Virus record (IMG/VR): IMGVR_UViG_2703718827_000011
Location: 1 to 5,241 of that record
DNA: 5,241 nucleotides
From: a virus
Lineage: Duplodnaviria > Heunggongvirae > Uroviricota > Caudoviricetes
Direction: 5' to 3' (one strand)
Shown here: one piece after another, positions 1-5,241 of the stretch
Position numbering within the stretch: the first letter of the stretch is position 1
Layout: every line of letters begins with the position of its first letter
The notes under the pieces: model-generated
Seen by the model: the letters and a program-made list of their open reading frames with translations, nothing else
Told to the model about the DNA's origin: nothing
Database searches by the model: none
Position numbers and translations under genes: made by a program

Positions 1-1194
1 ATGATCACCGACACAAAGCTCAGGAAGGCGCTCGGCAAGAAAAGAGATGATATCGAGATTATTTCTGATTCGCACGGGCTCAACGCCAGAATCAGCCAGG
101 CCGGAAAAATATCATTTTTCTATCGGTATCGCTGGGCCGGTAAAGCGGTAAAACTCAATGTTGGTGATTATCCTGCAATGAGTATCACCCAGGCAAGAGA
201 GCGTCGCCAACAATTCAGAAACTGGTTAACTGAGGGACTGGATCCGCGAGAGCAGGTGAAGCTGGATAAGCAGACCCGACAGGAAGCGATGTCCGTTGCC
301 GAAGCGTTCAATTACTGGATTGAAAGGCACTGTATCGCTAACGGGCTAGTTAAAGTCGATTACTATCGCCAGGTGTTTGAGAAACATATCGCCGAACCGA
401 TGAAGAATGTCAAAGTCGATAACACAGCGAAAATGCACTGGATCAACGTCTTCGATTCTATAGAAAGCAGGGTGATGGCTCATTACATGCTTTCGCTGTG
501 CAAACGGGCGTTTAGGTTCTGCGTTAACAGAAGTGTGATCGCCTCAAACCCACTCGAGGGATTACTGCCATCTGATGTCGGGCAAAAGCCTAAAAAGAGA
601 ACTCGCAGGATGGACGATGACGATCTGCGCAAAATCTATCAGTGGTTGAAAAGCCATATGTCGATAGAGTCCGTTTTCCTGGTGAAATTTATTATGCTTA
701 CCGGATGCCGTACGGCTGAGATTCGACTTAGTGAGAGATCATGGTTTCGATTGGATGATAATGAGTGGGTCGTGCCTGCGGGCAGTTATAAAACTCGGGT
801 ACATATTAGAAGGGGACTCTCAGACGCCGCCGTTAACCTGGTCAGAAATCACCTCAAGAAAATAAACACCAATCACCTGGTGACTTCACAACGTAAAATT
901 GATGGCGGGATCAAAGATTCGCCCGTTCATTCACCTGTGGCATCCAATTACGCCCGTTCTATTTGGAATGGAACAGGTATGGCAGAGTGGTCGCTTCATG
1001 ATATGAGGCGGACGATAGCCACAAATCTCTCTGAGTTAGGTTGCCCGCCGCACGTAATTGAAAAGCTGCTCGGGCATCAGATGGTGGGGGTTATGGCGCA
1101 TTACAACCTTCATGACTATATCGATGATCAGAAACACTGGCTCCGCGTTTGGCAGAGCCATCTTGAAGAGATCATCGGAGAGCCCTTCAGTTAA
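1..1194 (+). CDS. int: Tyrosine site-specific recombinase (phage integrase, P4/CP4-57-like with N-terminal arm-binding domain)
   Basis: 397-aa ORF starting with ATG at position 1 and ending TAA at 1192-1194. The N-terminus ([49 protein letters not shown]) matches the P4-type integrase arm-binding region from memory. The C-terminus carries the catalytic pattern [11 protein letters not shown] ... [18 protein letters not shown] (R, H-x-x-R, Y). The RBS cannot be seen because the window starts at the ATG. Confidence 0.9.
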
Positions 1195-1777: not shown

Positions 1778-2395
1778 TCATGCTGCACGCTCTGTGATTT
1801 TCTGAATTTCCGATTCCAGATCTGCAAGGAAGCTCTTAACCTCAGATTCGATTTCGCGCGCCAGCTCTTCATCGAAATGAATCCGCTTCTTGAAATAGGC
1901 GAGGTCAGGCGGCAGGCGATCATCGAAACTAACGAAATCACACCATTTCCGCCCGGTGCACATCATCTGTGCATGCATTTGCAGCATGTACTGGCGCTTT
2001 GGCTCACCAGTTTTCAGCGTTTCAAGATGGGTCCAGGTGTTGGGGCATTTGATTTCGATAAGCCCGTCGTCGTTGACAAGTCCGTCCGGGCTGGCTGCGA
2101 ATCCGGGTATGGTTGGGTGATCGATGAGCCCAACTTCAGTGATTGCCGCATTGAACTCATTCAGCGCGTACATTTCGCGTGCCACTGGCTCAAGTTCAGT
2201 GCCGCGCATCATCGCGGCATTCGAAAACCCTTCCTCCAGCTTCCCGGTCAGCCGTTGGCAAATCAGCTCGGCCATGTAGTTCTGGCGGCTGGTGGAGTAG
2301 CCCGACTTAGTCCGGGCCATGACATCAGCCAGGCGACTGGCTGTGACCTTGCCGCAGCGCGCAGCAAACCATTCAGGGGTGCGTTGCTCTATCAT
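1778..2395 (-). CDS. exo: YqaJ / lambda Exo-type 5'-3' alkaline exonuclease (PD-(D/E)XK), recombination partner of Bet
   Basis: 205 aa. N-terminal RTPEWFAARCGKVTASRLADVMA is the YqaJ-domain signature. The catalytic core GFAASPDGLVNDDGLIEIKCP parallels lambda Exo SPDGLCSDGNGLELKCP. ATG at 2395-2393 overlaps the bet stop (ATGA), with GGAGG 4 nt upstream. Confidence 0.85.
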   Translation of the reverse strand: MIEQRTPEWFAARCGKVTASRLADVMARTKSGYSTSRQNYMAELICQRLTGKLEEGFSNAAMMRGTELEPVAREMYALNEFNAAITEVGLIDHPTIPGFAASPDGLVNDDGLIEIKCPNTWTHLETLKTGEPKRQYMLQMHAQMMCTGRKWCDFVSFDDRLPPDLAYFKKRIHFDEELAREIESEVKSFLADLESEIQKITERAA

Positions 2396-3138
2396 TCAGC
2401 CTCCGTCTCTGCGACATTGACAGGTTCGGCGTTGTCGACAGCAAGACTCATGTCATACATGCGTCGTTTCTCAACTGCGCCGATCACCTGTTTCTCTTCG
2501 GCGCTCAGCGCCACCCAGAACTCCTGATACTTAACGGTTCCAAGGCGCGCGGCGGACTCACCTTTTGCGATCAGTTCCGGGCGGCGGCTATCTGATTCAT
2601 GGCCCGCATGAACCTCTGCCGTTGTTCCTTCAATTACTCGCTCTGCCTCGTCCTGGTCGAAGATGCCAGCGAAACCAAAGGCCAGACGCGCGCACTGGAT
2701 CAGCGTCTTGTGGCGAAGCATGCGGGTAGGGTGGGACTGCCATGGCTGAGTGTTGCGTTTGCACTCTCCCATGTACTCGGTGACGATGGTCGGGTGCTTA
2801 CGGTCTTTGCGGTAAATCTTGCAGGTACACGCGCCTTCCTCCTTGTCGTAAGAGAATTCCATGCCGTCAAACTGAGGATGTTCGTTGATAATGCGAGCCC
2901 ATCCATCAACGCCGACGACCGGGACAATCCCGCCTTTATCTGGAAAGGCATAAATCTCTTTGGTCCATGGGTTCAGGCCGTACTGGTTGGCGACGATTAG
3001 CAGGGCTGTAAATTGCTCGTCCGTGACGTTGCCACCTTTGAACGCTGTATTCTTCAGCGTATTCATCAGGTCTGTACCGGCATCCATGCCGAGGCGTGCG
3101 GCCAGTTTCCCGGCCATGGTGGAAAGTGCAGTACTCAT
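2392..3138 (-). CDS. bet: Single-strand annealing protein, lambda Bet (Red-beta) homologue, RecT/Bet superfamily
   Basis: From ATG at 3138 the protein begins MSTALSTMAGKLAARLGMD and contains LLIVANQYGLNPWTKEIYAFPDKGGIVPVVGVDGW...QFDGMEF...CKIYRKDRKHP...PWQSHPTRMLRHKTLIQCARLAFGFAGI. These are near-identical in long stretches to lambda Bet as recalled. GAGGGA lies 7 nt upstream. The track start at 3153 is a TTG extension. Confidence 0.92.
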   Translation of the reverse strand: MSTALSTMAGKLAARLGMDAGTDLMNTLKNTAFKGGNVTDEQFTALLIVANQYGLNPWTKEIYAFPDKGGIVPVVGVDGWARIINEHPQFDGMEFSYDKEEGACTCKIYRKDRKHPTIVTEYMGECKRNTQPWQSHPTRMLRHKTLIQCARLAFGFAGIFDQDEAERVIEGTTAEVHAGHESDSRRPELIAKGESAARLGTVKYQEFWVALSAEEKQVIGAVEKRRMYDMSLAVDNAEPVNVAETEAE

Positions 3139-3156
3139 TGTTAAATCCCTCAAAAA

Positions 3157-3441
3157 TTAAAACGGGCAGCCGGTACGGTGTTCCCAGTCGTATTCCGCCT
3201 GGGCGTAAGCAACTGCCGAAATGAAATCGTTGTAGGCCTCGCCAGCTTTATCGCTGCGAAGCCCTTCGTATGGGCTGGAGTCTATCGGGATCGTGAAGTG
3301 GAAGAGGCCGGACGGCTCTTTAGGCATCATGTCGATGATTTTCTGCGCCCGGTCGTCGATCCACTTCTCTTTCTCGTCGGTGATCTGCTGCTCAGCCCAG
3401 CGCCGATCTTCGATGCGGTCGTAAGTGAGGTATGCGTTCAT
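3157..3441 (-). CDS. gam: Gam-like host-nuclease (RecBCD) inhibitor, short GamS-like form
   Basis: 94 aa starting MNAYLTYDRIEDRRWAEQQITDEKEK, against lambda GamS [28 protein letters not shown] as recalled. Similar length, and positioned immediately upstream of bet as in lambda. ATG at 3441, with TGAGG 5 nt upstream. Confidence 0.7.
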   Translation of the reverse strand: MNAYLTYDRIEDRRWAEQQITDEKEKWIDDRAQKIIDMMPKEPSGLFHFTIPIDSSPYEGLRSDKAGEAYNDFISAVAYAQAEYDWEHRTGCPF

Positions 3442-3448
3442 GGTTGCC

Positions 3449-4420
3449 TCAGTAATGAATTTTCGCGCAGGGGATCAGGTCATCTTTCAGAGCGGTAAGC
3501 ACTTCGATAGCCTGCTCGCGGGTTAAGCTGGTTTGGCTGGTGAGCGCGTTAACGATGTTGGTGCCGACCGTCTTGCGGTGCTTAACGTCAGCTTCACGCT
3601 TTGCCTGCTCATCGGCGAGGCGCTTCTCTTCGGCCAGGCGGGCATCTTCGGCCTGTTTGGCCTTCAGGCGCTCGGCTTCAACCGCCGCGGCTTTTTCGCG
3701 TTCCGCCCGGGCTTCCGCTTCCTGCTTCTCGCGAGCTGCACGCTGTTCCGCTTCGACGCGCTGGCGCTCCGCCAGTTCAGCGCGGGCTTTCTCTTCGGCT
3801 TCACGGCGCGCTGCGGCTTCAATCTCCGCTTTGTGCTTCGCTTCGGCATCGCGGCGGGCTTGTTCTGCCGCTTCCTGTTTCAGCCGATCATCACGTTCAC
3901 GCTGAGCCTGTTCCGCCAGACGGCGCTGCTCTTCGCGGTCACGGTCAAAATCCTTGTTCATCAGTAGAGCCATTTCGTGGTCCGCTTCGAACTTGGCAGC
4001 CAGCTCCTGATCGAACCTGATGTTCATCTCCAGCGCTTCGGCGTGCATCGCGTTCATGGCTTCTTCAGCCTTAATGCGTTCCTGCTCGGCTTCCCATTCG
4101 GTGAGTGGGCGGCGGGTCGCATCGCGCAGCTCGTCGCAGGCATCAACGAATCGCTTAATTTCGGCCTCAGCCGGACGCACAGCCTCTTTCAGGCGCTTCA
4201 GGTACTCACGGCCCGGCTTTTCGATTGCCGTCTTGCTGCGGGACACCTGCGCTGCCAGAGAGGCAACACGGTCACGGCCTTTCTTCGTGGACAGGTCCGG
4301 CACTTCGTTTACAGCCTGGCGGATTTGCTCAAGGTACGCGTCAAGGCCGCCCGCTACGTAAAGCACTGGGGCCTGTTCCGGCTTGATTTCGATGACAGTT
4401 AAGTCCGTTACTTCGCTCAT
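3449..4420 (-). CDS. Hypothetical protein with a long E/R/A/K-rich charged helical (single-alpha-helix / coiled-coil-like) central segment; function unknown
   Basis: 323-aa ORF with ATG at 4420 and AGGAG 5 nt upstream. Stop TGA at 3451-3449, 7 nt before the gam ATG, so it is co-transcribed. Three parts: an N-terminal region of about 140 aa, a central run of about 130 aa of almost pure E/R/A/K/Q (e.g. AEQARRDAEAKHKAEIEAAARREAEEKARAELAERQRVEAEQRAAREKQEAEARAEREK), and a C-terminal tail of about 40 aa (TVGTNIVNALTSQTSLTREQAIEVLTALKDDLIPCAKIHY). No family recognised. Confidence 0.8.
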   Translation of the reverse strand: MSEVTDLTVIEIKPEQAPVLYVAGGLDAYLEQIRQAVNEVPDLSTKKGRDRVASLAAQVSRSKTAIEKPGREYLKRLKEAVRPAEAEIKRFVDACDELRDATRRPLTEWEAEQERIKAEEAMNAMHAEALEMNIRFDQELAAKFEADHEMALLMNKDFDRDREEQRRLAEQAQRERDDRLKQEAAEQARRDAEAKHKAEIEAAARREAEEKARAELAERQRVEAEQRAAREKQEAEARAEREKAAAVEAERLKAKQAEDARLAEEKRLADEQAKREADVKHRKTVGTNIVNALTSQTSLTREQAIEVLTALKDDLIPCAKIHY

Positions 4421-4490
4421 GGTTTCTCCTGAAATTTGGATGTGCAGATCCCGCCCGCGTAATGCCAGGCCGATCGGTTGAATAGGGTGG

Positions 4491-4688
4491 TTACTGCTGC
4501 GCGATGGATTTCGCCGGGAACTCGCCGTTGCGGATGATGCTTTCTACCGGCCAGCACTCAGCTGACACTTTCTGCTCTGTAGCTGCCAGGCTGCATTCCT
4601 GCTGGCTGTCGTAAACGCCGAGAATGACATCCTGATAATCACCGTTGGTCATTGCCACGGTCAGGACGAGTGCGAATAAAGTTTCCAT
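4491..4688 (-). CDS. Hypothetical small protein (65 aa) with hydrophobic N-terminal segment; possibly a Kil-like host-interfering peptide
   Basis: ATG at 4688-4686 preceded by GGGAGGA about 11 nt upstream; stop TAA at 4493-4491. Sequence METLFALVLTVAMTNGDYQDVILGVYDSQQECSLAATEQKVSAECWPVESIIRNGEFPAKSIAQQ. The ORF-track version (to 4742) is a non-ATG extension. The Kil-like suggestion rests only on position and a loose N-terminal resemblance recalled from memory. Confidence 0.5.
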   Translation of the reverse strand: METLFALVLTVAMTNGDYQDVILGVYDSQQECSLAATEQKVSAECWPVESIIRNGEFPAKSIAQQ

Positions 4689-4936
4689 CAGTGAAGAGTC
4701 CTCCCGATGGCGACGGCGTAAAGGCGTTTTGCTTCTTCCCACGCCGGAGCATTGCGATGGAGTACCGCGAACGACGCGAGCCGTTGGGCCTCTCTGATCT
4801 GCTGCTGATTTACCATGATTACCTCTTAGCCTTATCGCGGCGAACGGAACGGTTAATACAAGACTTCTGCGCTAATGGGCGGTGGATGGCCGCCGGTTGT
4901 CATAACTAAGCCGCCTCGGTGAAGCGACTGAGGTAT

Positions 4937-4961
4937 GAAAAAAGCCGCTGGTTAGGCGGCT
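4937..4961 (-). terminator. Putative rho-independent terminator on the - strand (GC-rich 6-bp stem, 7-nt loop, followed by a U6 tract)
   Basis: The + strand reads AAAAAA-GCCGC-TGGTTAG-GCGGC-T. On the - strand transcript this is a stem-loop AGCCGC/GCGGCU followed directly by UUUUUU. A second imperfect hairpin (CCTCGGT...ACTGAGG, about 4912-4933) lies just downstream on the - strand. Confidence 0.4.
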
Positions 4962-5142
4962 ATTGATTGAAATTAAATGAGCGGGGAGATATTTGGCTTG
5001 CAGCCCTGCAAAATGCGCTATCAAGGAATTGATACTTATGTCGCCACACTCTGCCGCGCTGATCACCATGCTTTGCACAATCAGGTCGGCGCATCATGGT
5101 GAAATGAACCACTGTTTCGCTTGTAGCTTTAGGTTTACGCAT
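4960..5142 (-). CDS. Low-confidence small basic ORF (60 aa from first in-window ATG; frame stays open to the window edge, so the gene may start beyond 5241)
   Basis: ATG at 5142-5140 with GAGGG 7 nt upstream. Stop TAG at 4962-4960 lies inside the terminator stem. Product MRKPKATSETVVHFTMMRRPDCAKHGDQRGRVWRHKYQFLDSAFCRAASQISPRSFNFNQ is R/K/H-rich. Third-position GC is not elevated, so coding status is uncertain. Confidence 0.25.
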   Translation of the reverse strand: MRKPKATSETVVHFTMMRRPDCAKHGDQRGRVWRHKYQFLDSAFCRAASQISPRSFNFNQ

Positions 5143-5241
5143 GCTCTTACCCTCTGTCGTTACCCGCTGATGCGGGAGAAATGCTTTGTGGTGCAGCGCC
5201 GGGTGCTTATCTTCCGGTTGCCGTCGATGCAGCTGCAATTC

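What the first reader, a model, noticed from the sequence alone, without database searches (positions are those of the whole stretch)
4900..4965. Tandem hairpins with a U-tract: terminator between an upstream basic ORF and the Red operon (N/tL1-like layout?)
On the - strand a GC-rich stem-loop followed by UUUUUU sits exactly at the stop codon of a small basic ORF (5142-4960), with a second hairpin immediately after. Transcription entering from the right would have to read through this terminator to reach gam-bet-exo. Otherwise a separate promoter must lie between about 4936 and 4689. A small arginine-rich protein followed by a terminator ahead of the recombination genes is the lambda N-tL1 arrangement. 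That would imply antitermination-dependent expression of the operon.
Basis: partly seen in the sequence, partly recalled or inferred. Interest (0 to 1): 0.45.

Follow-up and report, generated by a model that had tools for sequence, protein, structure and literature searches.

The report
Prophage early-left operon tL1 terminator
This is an ordinary transcription stop signal after the first, swappable gene of a phi80/HK639-like prophage's early-left operon, and polymerase most likely passes it with help from an upstream antiterminator RNA (put), not from the small basic protein.

Summary
On the minus strand a 6-bp GC-rich hairpin (4961-4943) with a T6 run overlaps the TAG stop of a 60-aa basic ORF (5142-4960). 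A second hairpin (4937-4901) follows directly.

The first hairpin matches the feature annotated tL1A, just after gene N, in phage phi80; it differs only by one extra T. The ribosome-binding site, start codon and downstream sequence are shared with phi80, but the coding body is not.

In the related loci examined, this slot holds at least 29 unrelated small proteins. Nearly all are followed by a hairpin plus T-run. The slot gene also assorts independently of the leader type, so the basic ORF is cargo, not a cognate N.

Every locus that shares the window's unique 99 nt upstream of the ORF carries an HK639/HK022-type putL antiterminator RNA just downstream of pL. By that proxy, putL lies about 0.45 kb beyond the right edge.

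So the layout is tL1-like and read-through is probably antitermination-dependent, but RNA-mediated.

The second hairpin is a separate, strongly covarying RNA structure. It also occurs in lambda upstream of cIII, and its function is unresolved.

Overall the terminator is ordinary and already annotated elsewhere.

The parts
4938..4961 (-). H1: intrinsic (Rho-independent type) terminator. The stem is AGCCGC/GCGGCU, the loop is CUAACCA, and a T6 run follows. It is the homologue of phi80 tL1A. Its first two bases are the AG of the TAG stop codon.
   Evidence: The pattern scan lists it. It folds at -9.6 kcal/mol with z = -4.2. It matches phi80 tL1A with one extra T in the run. Hairpin plus T-run alleles occupy the same position in 59 of 113 loci.
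4901..4937 (-). H2: a conserved RNA hairpin. It has a basal stem CAUA/UAUG, a variable middle stem, and a conserved apical YUC-NNN-GAG. It is not a canonical terminator in this allele because it lacks a U-run.
   Evidence: It folds at -15.1 kcal/mol with z = -4.4. In 50 distinct variants, 98.5% of cells are paired and 7 pairs show compensatory change. The covariation score is 0.348, against 0.124 in shuffles (0 of 500 reach it) and at most 0.061 when the partners are slid. Covariance-model hits and sequence reading place homologues in lambda, HK022 and HK140.
4878..4894 (-). H3: the small hairpin GGCGG-CCAUCCA-CCGCC, followed by a C-rich spacer.
   Evidence: It folds at -8.6 kcal/mol, which is not significant alone (z = -1.35). 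It was used as the exact search anchor, so its invariance carries no information. A Salmonella phage variant keeps the pairing through G-C to G-U. The spacing from the AUG to H3 varies by non-multiples of 3, so it is not conserved as coding sequence.
4862..4872 (-). The conserved motif GCGCAGAAGUC, downstream of H3.
   Evidence: It is present in most related loci and falls in all three reading frames relative to the upstream AUG.
4960..5142 (-). A 60-aa basic ORF (pI 10.9) that fills the N/nun slot. It is best read as variable cargo. Coding is likely but unproven.
   Evidence: It matches phrog_17199 over the full length (E = 8e-25). It uses the same SD and ATG as 29 unrelated cargo families. 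Only near-identical copies exist. Across all copies there are 2 synonymous and 4 non-synonymous changes.
5143..5188 (-). The conserved 5' flank of the slot. It contains the small hairpin CCCGC-AUCA-GCGGG (5176-5163) and the SD GAGGG (5154-5150), 7 nt before the ATG.
   Evidence: It is shared with phi80, HK639, CobraSix, KO-TP1 and BHUENT6, and occurs in 57 of 113 loci. The fold alone is not significant.
5190..5241 (-). A remnant of the pL leader, of the kind called a boundary sequence.
   Evidence: It matches the nutL-to-N leader of HK140 at 92% and the feature annotated 'bsq5; boundary sequence' in CUS-3.
1778..4816 (-). The downstream genes that depend on read-through. They are a 42-aa ORF (4816-4688), DUF1482 (4688-4491), a 323-aa Agt/Mog-like protein (4420-3449), GamL (3441-3157), Bet/RecT (3153-2392) and Exo (2395-1778).
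   Evidence: The ORF list, Pfam and PHROG matches, and annotation of near-identical prophages and of phi80 support these assignments.

Best explanation
H1 (4961-4938, minus strand) is the tL1-type intrinsic terminator. It closes the first, exchangeable gene cassette of the early-left (pL) operon of a phi80/HK639-like lambdoid prophage.

Transcription starts at pL, about 0.9 kb to the right and outside the window. It crosses the cargo ORF and meets H1. Unmodified RNA polymerase would release there, keeping kil-like, gam, bet, exo and xis genes silent.

Polymerase that has transcribed the putL RNA, inferred to lie about 430-555 nt beyond the right edge, becomes termination-resistant, as in HK022 and HK639. 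It then reads through H1 into the recombination genes.

The 60-aa basic ORF is cargo of the slot, not the antiterminator. H2 is a separate, structurally constrained RNA hairpin of the pL transcript. H2 and the H3 motif that follows it are conserved across lambdoid phages, with or without a slot gene. Their role is not established; candidates are processing or stability, pausing, or Rho loading.

What is shown: the hairpin anatomy, the homology to annotated phi80 tL1A, the cassette architecture, the covariation of H2, and the presence of put in every locus sharing the window's flank.

What is inferred: that H1 terminates, that put is present in this genome, and that put-modified polymerase reads through.
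For: Anatomy and homology of H1:
- H1 has a GC stem and a T6 run overlapping the stop codon.
- It matches phi80 'tL1A; rho-independent leftward transcription terminator', with an identical hairpin and one extra T in the run.
- The 46 nt upstream of the ATG and about 100 nt downstream are also shared with phi80.
- HK639 and HK022 carry a different hairpin allele, ACCCGC..GCGGGU plus a T-run, at the same place. The HK639 record annotates it as a terminator.

Selection for the terminator form:
- There are 12 stem/loop alleles, all with perfect stems plus a T-run.
- They are tightly linked to the presence of a slot gene: slot with terminator 40, slot without terminator 2, no slot and no terminator 32, no slot with terminator 8.

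Position in the operon:
- H1 is the only terminator-like site on this strand between pL and the recombination genes in the proxy L001.
- pL and its operators are identified by alignment to the annotated phi80 pL.

Evidence for put:
- The stretch of L001 that corresponds to the HK639 feature 'putL-like antiterminator RNA' aligns to it without a mismatch except for 2-3 differences at its 3' end.
- It shares the two-stem fold of HK022 putL, with a covarying lower stem II.
- The window's 99 nt upstream of the ORF are 98-99/99 identical to L001, L004, L134, L137, L138, L144, L145 and L147, and all of these carry put.
- Two further copies of the ORF, L143 and L148, sit in different upstream contexts in which neither put nor the phi80-type leader was detected within the 1.2 kb held.

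Evidence that the ORF is cargo:
- The slot holds 29 unrelated families.
- The cargo assorts independently of the leader type.

No internal promoter:
- No promoter-like site is found between 4936 and 4689.
Against: - No transcript data exist, so termination at H1 and read-through are not demonstrated for this sequence.
- The putL element is outside the window and is inferred from other genomes. One locus with the same ORF sits behind a phi80-type leader instead (L066/L136, the same contig).
- The 1985 phi80 record (M11919) places its 't-L1' feature at 1408-1777. That fragment starts at the CCGG just before H3 and excludes H1 and H2. The experimentally mapped phi80 tL1 may therefore lie downstream, and the 'tL1A' label may be a prediction.
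- H1 has a short stem and a 7-nt loop, so it may be only a partial terminator.
- The promoter scan is insensitive: it also missed pL and pR in L001. A weak internal promoter therefore cannot be excluded.
Confidence: 0.72

Rival explanations
1. The basic ORF product is an N-like, arginine-rich antiterminator that binds a nut site on the pL transcript and lets polymerase pass H1.
For: - The ORF sits exactly where phi80 annotates N, with the same SD, ATG and terminator.
- It is strongly basic, with pI 10.9.
- One locus places the same ORF behind a phi80-type 'nutL' leader (L066/L136, the same contig).
Against: - It matches no N, Nun or other antiterminator family in Pfam, PHROGs or NCBIfam. Its PHROG has unknown function.
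- The slot holds 29 unrelated families, and 30 of 47 proteins are acidic.
- Cargo and leader assort independently. The phi80 'N' occurs behind a put leader, and the phi80-type leader occurs in front of at least 20 unrelated first genes. That pattern is incompatible with a cognate N/nut pair.
- The window's own flank goes with put.
- There is no contiguous arginine-rich helix motif like those of lambda, P22 or phi21 N. This rests on reading the sequence and on my own knowledge of those proteins.
Confidence: 0.06
2. The recombination operon has its own promoter downstream of the hairpins (between 4936 and 4689), and H1 simply insulates it from upstream transcription. No antitermination is involved.
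For: - Terminator-then-promoter insulation is common.
- The promoter scan used here is insensitive: it missed pL and pR in L001.
Against: - No sigma-70-like site is found there.
- The same H2-H3-GCGCAGAAGUC block lies inside the transcribed leader, about 190 nt downstream of pL, in prophages with no slot gene and no H1.
- It carries a covarying RNA structure. That argues it is transcribed RNA, not a promoter.
- In lambdoid phages these genes are classically pL-dependent (established knowledge).
Confidence: 0.07
3. The main role of H1 is to form the 3' end of a stable RNA, rather than to gate the operon. That RNA could be an Hfq-binding sRNA or a stabilised cargo mRNA. This is what was reported for lambda tL2a, which is the 3' end of the sRNA LPR1/PreS.
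For: - A GC hairpin with a U6 tail is the typical Hfq-sRNA 3' end.
- A precedent exists in the same operon of lambda (bioRxiv 10.1101/2024.10.31.621285).
- In HK022 and HK140 the tL2a/PreS terminator sits immediately before the H2 homologue, in the same relative position as H1 here.
Against: - The sequence upstream of H1 is the hypervariable cargo, so no conserved seed or sRNA body exists.
- No Rfam family matches.
- This role would not exclude termination or antitermination gating.
Confidence: 0.1
4. H1 and the flanks are mainly recombination 'boundary sequences' that allow cassette exchange between phages, and H1 has little terminator function.
For: - The mosaic junctions fall exactly at the conserved flanks.
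- Part of the upstream flank is annotated as a boundary sequence in CUS-3.
- The hairpin supplies stop codons in two frames.
Against: - Twelve different hairpin alleles all keep a perfect GC stem plus a T-run. That is selection for terminator form, not for a fixed recombination sequence.
- The two roles are compatible.
Confidence: 0.05

Closest known systems
Phage phi80 N - tL1A/tL1B region (GenBank JX871397 and M11919)
   Same: - The terminator hairpin is identical, apart from T5 versus T6 in the run.
- The 46 nt upstream of the start codon, including SD and ATG, are shared.
- The H2-H3 block downstream is shared.
- The initial transcribed sequence after pL is the same in the proxy loci.
- The downstream gene set is the same: Agt/Mog, GamL, recombinase, Exo, Xis, Int.
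- int-xis is 99.9% identical to phi80.
   Different: - The coding body is unrelated: 60 aa basic here against the 98-aa phi80 'N'.
- The leader in the proxy loci carries put instead of the phi80 boxA/'nutL core'.
- The sequence where phi80 annotates tL1B is not conserved here.
HK022 / HK639 put-RNA antitermination (pL - putL - nun or HK639_44 - terminator)
   Same: - The putL element of the proxy loci aligns to the HK639 putL feature with only 2-3 differences at its 3' end.
- It has the two-stem architecture of HK022 putL.
- A variable first gene is followed directly by an intrinsic-type terminator.
- In HK639 the same H2-H3 block follows.
   Different: - put lies outside the window and is inferred.
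- The terminator allele differs: AGCCGC.. here against ACCCGC.. in HK022 and HK639.
- The cargo differs: Nun in HK022 and a 149-aa membrane-like protein in HK639.
- A reverse-oriented zinc-ribbon gene sits between putL and the slot in the proxies.
Lambda pL - nutL - N - tL1
   Same: - An early-left operon in which the first gene is followed by a terminator.
- That terminator must be overridden by processive antitermination to express gam-bet-exo-xis-int.
   Different: - There is no lambda-type N.
- No boxA/boxB is seen in the proxies.
- The antiterminator is RNA rather than protein.
- The slot gene is not required by the model.
Lambda tL2a / sRNA LPR1 (PreS) and the hairpin upstream of cIII
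   Same: - It is an internal pL-operon terminator followed, in HK022 and HK140, immediately by the H2 homologue CAUACC..GUUAUG.
- In lambda, H2 sits directly 5' of the cIII SD.
   Different: - H1 is not homologous to tL2a, and no conserved sRNA body precedes it.
- Lambda's H2 has a U5 run after its inner stem, which the window's H2 lacks.
- Lambda has no H3.
Morons and boundary sequences of lambdoid phages (Hendrix/Clark concepts; the 'bsq' features in the CUS-3 record)
   Same: - A small accessory gene with its own terminator is inserted between conserved junction sequences.
- At least 29 alternative cargos occupy one site.
   Different: - No cassette-specific promoter is evident.
- The translation start signals are supplied by the conserved flank rather than by the cargo.

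Membership tests
Intrinsic (Rho-independent) terminator | A GC-rich stem-loop immediately followed by a U-rich tract on the transcribed strand. | tested here: met
   The stem has 6 bp, 5 of them G-C, followed by a T6 run. It folds at -9.6 kcal/mol, and 0 of 200 shuffles fold as well.
Intrinsic (Rho-independent) terminator | It lies at the 3' end of a transcription unit or gene, in the direction of transcription. | tested here: met
   It overlaps the TAG of the 60-aa ORF. It occupies the same place relative to 29 other cargo families.
Intrinsic (Rho-independent) terminator | It releases RNA polymerase without Rho, in vitro or in vivo. | not testable with these tools
   Only annotation in phi80 (tL1A) and in HK639 (a terminator at the equivalent site) is available. 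The older phi80 record maps 't-L1' downstream of H1.
phi80 tL1A homologue | Sequence identity and the same flanking context as the annotated phi80 feature. | tested here: met
   The window reads TAGCCGCCTAACCAGCGGCTTTTT(T)CATACC, which matches phi80 apart from one extra T. Both upstream and downstream flanks align.
Lambda-type N/nut protein antitermination | The first pL gene encodes a protein of a recognised N family, or one with an arginine-rich RNA-binding motif. | tested here: not met
   There is no hit to any N or Nun family in Pfam, PHROGs or NCBIfam. The only match is phrog_17199, of unknown function.
Lambda-type N/nut protein antitermination | A cognate nut site (boxA plus a boxB hairpin) lies between pL and the gene and co-varies with the N allele. 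| tested here: not met
   Loci sharing the window's flank carry put, not nut. Cargo and leader type assort independently across loci. This was tested on proxy loci, not on the window itself.
Lambda-type N/nut protein antitermination | A terminator (tL1) follows directly after the gene. | tested here: met
   H1 overlaps the stop codon.
put-RNA (HK022/HK639) antitermination | A put element with two stem-loops lies just downstream of pL and is similar in sequence to HK022 or HK639 put. | tested here: inconclusive
   The feature is met in all 8 loci whose 99 nt upstream of the ORF match the window 98-99/99 (L001, L004, L134, L137, L138, L144, L145, L147). Their put sequence aligns to the HK639 putL feature with only 2-3 differences at its 3' end, and the two-stem fold is shared with HK022. 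The element lies outside the 5241-nt window, so its presence in this genome is inferred.
put-RNA (HK022/HK639) antitermination | Read-through depends on put in cis and on the zinc-binding domain of RNA polymerase beta'. | not testable with these tools
   This needs genetics or in vitro transcription. The properties of HK022 put are taken from PMC9378689.
Structured cis-RNA element (H2) | Base pairs are maintained by compensatory substitutions across homologues. | tested here: met
   In 50 distinct variants, 98.5% of cells are paired. Seven pairs and 100 cells show double changes. The covariation score is 0.348, against 0.124 in shuffles (0 of 500 reach it) and at most 0.061 when slid.
Any Rfam family (including known phage or EHEC sRNAs) | A covariance-model match at or near the gathering score. 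| tested here: not met
   No hit reaches the gathering score. The best chance hits score about 21 bits against thresholds of 41-70.

The most novel reading that the evidence does not exclude
The two hairpins are not one tandem terminator. H2, with the H3 motif after it, would be an uncharacterised, structurally constrained RNA module of lambdoid pL transcripts. The block matches DNA in about half of complete E. coli genomes and lies upstream of cIII in lambda. Its function would be distinct from termination: RNA processing or stability, translational control of the next gene, or Rho loading.

The 'N slot' of phi80-like phages would be a hypervariable accessory-gene cassette whose contents, possibly including phi80 'N' itself, are irrelevant to antitermination.
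Probability: 0.35. Interest if true: 0.55.

Novelty: already known. Interest (0 to 1): 0.25.

Why it matters
As a terminator, the finding matters little. It is the same element already annotated in phi80, in an arrangement known from lambda, HK022 and HK639.

Its practical value is for annotation:
- The 60-aa ORF should not be called N.
- Expression of the Red-like genes in this prophage family probably depends on an RNA antiterminator.
- PGAP's long opposite-strand 'ECs_2282' call over this region is an over-extension.

The by-products are more interesting. One insertion site holds at least 29 unrelated small proteins, which makes it a good place to look for exclusion or anti-defence genes. 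The widespread covarying hairpin H2 has no assigned function.

Tried and rejected
- Rfam was searched at gathering and at permissive thresholds on the window and on the proxy locus. Nothing credible turned up. The Trp-leader and frameshift-site hits are chance matches to the terminator stem.
- I tested whether the basic ORF is under purifying selection. Searches of 5.8 billion proteins, viral contigs, representative genomes and metagenomes found only near-identical copies. They carry 2 synonymous and 4 non-synonymous changes, which is too few to decide.
- I considered that the plus-strand 'ECs_2282' CDS called by PGAP disproves the minus-strand ORF. This is rejected, because the NCBIfam model covers only residues 118-173 of that 184-aa call, beyond the window.
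- I considered a leader peptide, MTTGGHPPP, starting at the AUG in the base of H2. This is rejected as a conserved frame, because the AUG-to-H3 spacing varies by non-multiples of 3 and GCGCAGAAGUC occurs in all three frames.
- I considered H1/H2 alternative pairing (AGCCGCC with GGCGGCU) as an attenuator. This is rejected: it is specific to this H2 allele, and the partner lies downstream of the terminator.
- I looked for a second copy of H2-H3 in the pR operon, as nutL/nutR or putL/putR would predict. None was found in phi80 or in the proxy loci.
- A first impression that the 80-nt block matched lambda near ea10 was wrong. Those hits are lambda-like hybrids. In lambda proper only H2 is present, upstream of cIII.
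- The primary papers on HK639 put (King 2011), the phi80 genome (Rotman 2012) and phi80 tL1 (1985) are not in the held library. Their content is used only through GenBank annotations.
- A text search for the H3 sequence found nothing.
Full report
WHAT IS IN THE SEQUENCE

All coordinates below are on the minus strand. A 60-codon ORF runs from ATG 5142 to TAG 4962-4960. The A and G of the stop codon are the first two bases of a hairpin, H1:
- 5' arm AGCCGC (4961-4956)
- loop CUAACCA (4955-4949)
- 3' arm GCGGCU (4948-4943)
- a run of six T (4943-4938)

The pattern scan lists H1 with 6 pairs, 5 of them G-C. Folded alone it gives -9.6 kcal/mol, and none of 200 shuffles folds as well.

A second hairpin, H2 (4937-4901, CAUACC...GUUAUG), follows directly. 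It gives -15.1 kcal/mol, and none of 200 shuffles folds as well.

A third, small hairpin, H3 (GGCGG-CCAUCCA-CCGCC, 4894-4878), follows after 6 nt. It is not significant on its own.

A single-sequence terminator scan is not significant by itself: 9 sites against 6.6 +/- 2.0 in shuffles. The argument rests on comparison with other loci.

CONTEXT

The window is the left arm of an E. coli lambdoid prophage.
- int and xis are 99.9% identical to phi80.
- On the minus strand lie Exo, Bet/RecT, GamL, a 323-aa Agt/Mog-like protein, DUF1482 and a 42-aa ORF.

No complete E. coli genome in the collection contains the whole window. Its right end, however, is 99.9-100% identical to prophages in strains EF7-18-51 (L001) and 53 (L004). 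These show what lies to the right:
- a small zinc-ribbon gene on the other strand
- pL with palindromic operators
- a LexA-like repressor with its own terminator
- cro-like and YdaT-like genes

Aligned to the annotated phi80 pL, L001 has -35 TTGCAC, a 17-nt spacer and -10 TAAATT. The first 45 transcribed nucleotides are the same as in phi80. H1 is the only terminator-like site on that strand between pL and the recombination genes.

HOMOLOGY TO PHI80 N-tL1

The phi80 record annotates N, then 'tL1A; rho-independent leftward transcription terminator', then 'tL1B; rho-dependent'. Compared with phi80, the window shares:
- the 46 nt before the start codon, including SD and ATG
- the stop codon plus hairpin, identical except T6 for T5
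- about 100 nt downstream

The coding body is unrelated: 60 aa against 98 aa.

THE SLOT IS A CARGO CASSETTE, NOT AN N LOCUS

I collected 120 viral contigs with the H3 motif and added annotated phages. The same 5' flank and a terminator bracket completely different genes:
- phi80 'N'
- a 51-aa protein (BHUENT6)
- a 212-aa Cys-rich protein (CobraSix)
- a 65-aa acidic protein (KO-TP1)
- a 149-aa protein (HK639_44)
- a lambda Ea10-like protein
- many others

Forty-seven distinct proteins fall into 29 families with no detectable similarity. Thirty of the 47 are acidic, and the window's protein is the most basic, with pI 10.9.

A perfect-stem hairpin plus T-run precedes CAUAC in 59 of 113 loci, in 12 stem/loop alleles. 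It is tightly linked to the presence of a slot gene: slot with terminator 40, slot without terminator 2, no slot and no terminator 32, no slot with terminator 8. Retention of the hairpin-plus-T-run form across different sequences is the best evidence here that H1 is selected as a terminator.

WHAT LETS POLYMERASE THROUGH

The HK639 record annotates a 'putL-like antiterminator RNA' just downstream of pL. L001 aligns to that feature without a mismatch except for 2-3 differences at its 3' end.

It shares the two-stem architecture of HK022 putL, with compensatory changes in the lower part of stem II. [quoted passage not shown]

The window ends before this element. Even so:
- Its 99 nt upstream of the ORF are 98-99/99 identical to eight loci (L001, L004, L134, L137, L138, L144, L145, L147), and all of them carry put.
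- A locus with the same ORF behind a phi80-type leader (L066/L136, the same contig) matches only 57/99.
- L146 shares the flank (97/99), but too little upstream sequence is held to see its leader.
- Two further copies, L143 and L148, sit in different upstream contexts where neither leader type was detected within the 1.2 kb held.

By this proxy, put should lie about 430-555 nt beyond the right edge.

Across all loci, cargo and leader assort independently:
- The basic ORF, the 145-aa family and the 149-aa family occur behind both put and phi80-type leaders.
- The phi80 'N' sits behind put in strain ET245.
- The phi80-type leader precedes at least 20 unrelated first genes.

A cognate N/nut pair would not behave this way.

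The basic ORF matches no N or Nun family. Its only hit is phrog_17199, of unknown function. Its coding status is plausible but unproven:
- It uses the shared SD and ATG, stays intact in every copy, and moves as a unit between contexts.
- Only near-identical copies exist, with 2 synonymous and 4 non-synonymous differences.
- PGAP's opposite-strand 184-aa 'ECs_2282' call is no obstacle. The family model covers only its last third, which lies outside the window.

THE SECOND HAIRPIN

H2 is not simply a second terminator.
- Fifty distinct variants keep the same architecture: a basal stem CAUA/UAUG, a 2-bp step, an 8-9-bp variable stem, and an apical YUC-NNN-GAG.
- 98.5% of cells are paired. Seven pairs and 100 cells carry double changes.
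- The covariation score is 0.348, against 0.124 in shuffles (0 of 500 reach it) and at most 0.061 when partners are slid.
- The invariance of H3 is by construction, because it was the search anchor.

The 80-nt H2-H3 block matches DNA in roughly half (about 2,500) of 5,426 complete E. coli genomes. In O157-type prophages it sits about 190 nt downstream of pL, with no slot gene and no H1, just before kil.

A covariance model finds one copy per phage, always in the pL operon. It also gives weaker hits that prove on inspection to be H2 homologues:
- in lambda, directly 5' of the cIII SD
- in HK022 and HK140, directly after the tL2a terminator

tL2a is the 3' end of the sRNA LPR1/PreS (bioRxiv 10.1101/2024.10.31.621285).

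In lambda the inner stem is followed by U5, so H2 there may be one of the tL2 sites. I could not verify this. The window's allele has no U-run.

The mini-ORF starting at the AUG in H2's base is not conserved as a frame. Nothing in Rfam matches. The function of H2 is therefore open. Processing or stability, pausing, translational control of the next gene, and Rho loading are all candidates. For the last, note that phi80's tL1B lies about 115-150 nt downstream of H3.

CAVEATS

- No transcript data were available.
- The 1985 phi80 record places 't-L1' on a fragment that begins at the CCGG just before H3, so it excludes H1 and H2. The experimentally defined phi80 tL1 may be the downstream Rho-dependent site, and 'tL1A' may be a prediction.
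- The primary papers could not be read.
- The promoter scan is insensitive.

VERDICT

The hairpin is a real, conserved tL1-type terminator that is already annotated in phi80. The operon layout and the need for antitermination are supported. The proposed role of the basic ORF is not: the likely antiterminator is a put RNA outside the window. The terminator is ordinary and known. The hypervariable slot and the covarying H2 hairpin are the parts worth following up.

Noticed in passing
window 4901-4937 (-); lambda J02459 33478-33521 (complement) = L003 2479-2522; L140 3531-3575; L132 5444-5488: The H2 hairpin has homologues in lambda itself, directly upstream of the cIII ribosome-binding site. It also has homologues in HK022 and HK140, directly after the tL2a/PreS terminator. 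In lambda the inner stem is followed by U5, so H2 may coincide with a mapped tL2 site.
   Followed up: partly
loci L005, L011, L032, L066, L113 and others: The first gene of the pL operon and the leader type (put versus phi80 'nutL') assort independently. The phi80 98-aa 'N' sits behind a put leader in E. coli ET245. The phi80-type leader precedes at least 20 unrelated first genes. This raises doubt about whether phi80 'N' is the cognate antiterminator of that leader.
   Followed up: partly
window 5143-5188 to 4938-4961 (-), and 57 related loci: One insertion slot holds at least 29 unrelated small protein families (51-222 aa). The conserved flank supplies the SD and ATG. The terminator hairpin supplies stop codons in two frames: TAG at its 5' base and TAA in its loop.
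   Followed up: yes
window 5038-5241 (+), continuing to L001 10193: PGAP annotates a 184-aa 'ECs_2282 family zinc-binding protein' on the plus strand, overlapping the basic ORF. The NCBIfam model matches only residues 118-173, so the start is over-extended. HK639's annotators instead call a 115-aa ORF on the opposite strand of the same DNA (HK639_45). Which strand codes there is unresolved.
   Followed up: partly
window 4862-4894 (-): H3 (GGCGGCCAUCCACCGCC) and the motif GCGCAGAAGUC are conserved at the nucleotide level. The distance from the upstream AUG changes by non-multiples of 3, and the motif falls in all three frames. They are therefore RNA or DNA signals, not a leader peptide (MTTGGHPPP).
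   Followed up: partly
window 5190-5241 (-): The last 52 nt of the window match, at about 92%, the nutL-to-N leader of N-type phages (HK140, mEp213). They also match the feature annotated 'bsq5; boundary sequence' in CUS-3.
   Followed up: partly
window 1138-1160 (-): A 9-bp hairpin just after xis, inside the 3' end of int, corresponds exactly to phi80's annotated 'putative leftward transcription terminator' (25961-25981). This is the likely end of the early-left operon.
   Followed up: partly
window 3449-4420 (-) and 3157-3441 (-): The 323-aa coiled-coil protein upstream of GamL occupies the position of phi80 Agt/Mog ('anti-toxin for Gam') and has its length. It matches phrog_1376 over the full length. 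The 'gam' here is the GamL type, not lambda Gam.
   Followed up: partly
L009 1432-3033 and 3100-3500 (E. coli O157:H7 prophage): In O157-type prophages a SIR2-family gene follows the repressor. The pL leader that precedes H2-H3 is a different conserved sequence (GGGGAGTGCGAGGGGTGAA...) and contains no slot gene and no terminator. Whether that leader is another antiterminator RNA was not examined.
   Followed up: no
L139 2180-2480 (Salmonella phage S9-5): In this P22-like phage two successive small genes each end in their own hairpin plus T-run before H2-H3. Several gene-plus-terminator units can therefore be stacked in this region.
   Followed up: no
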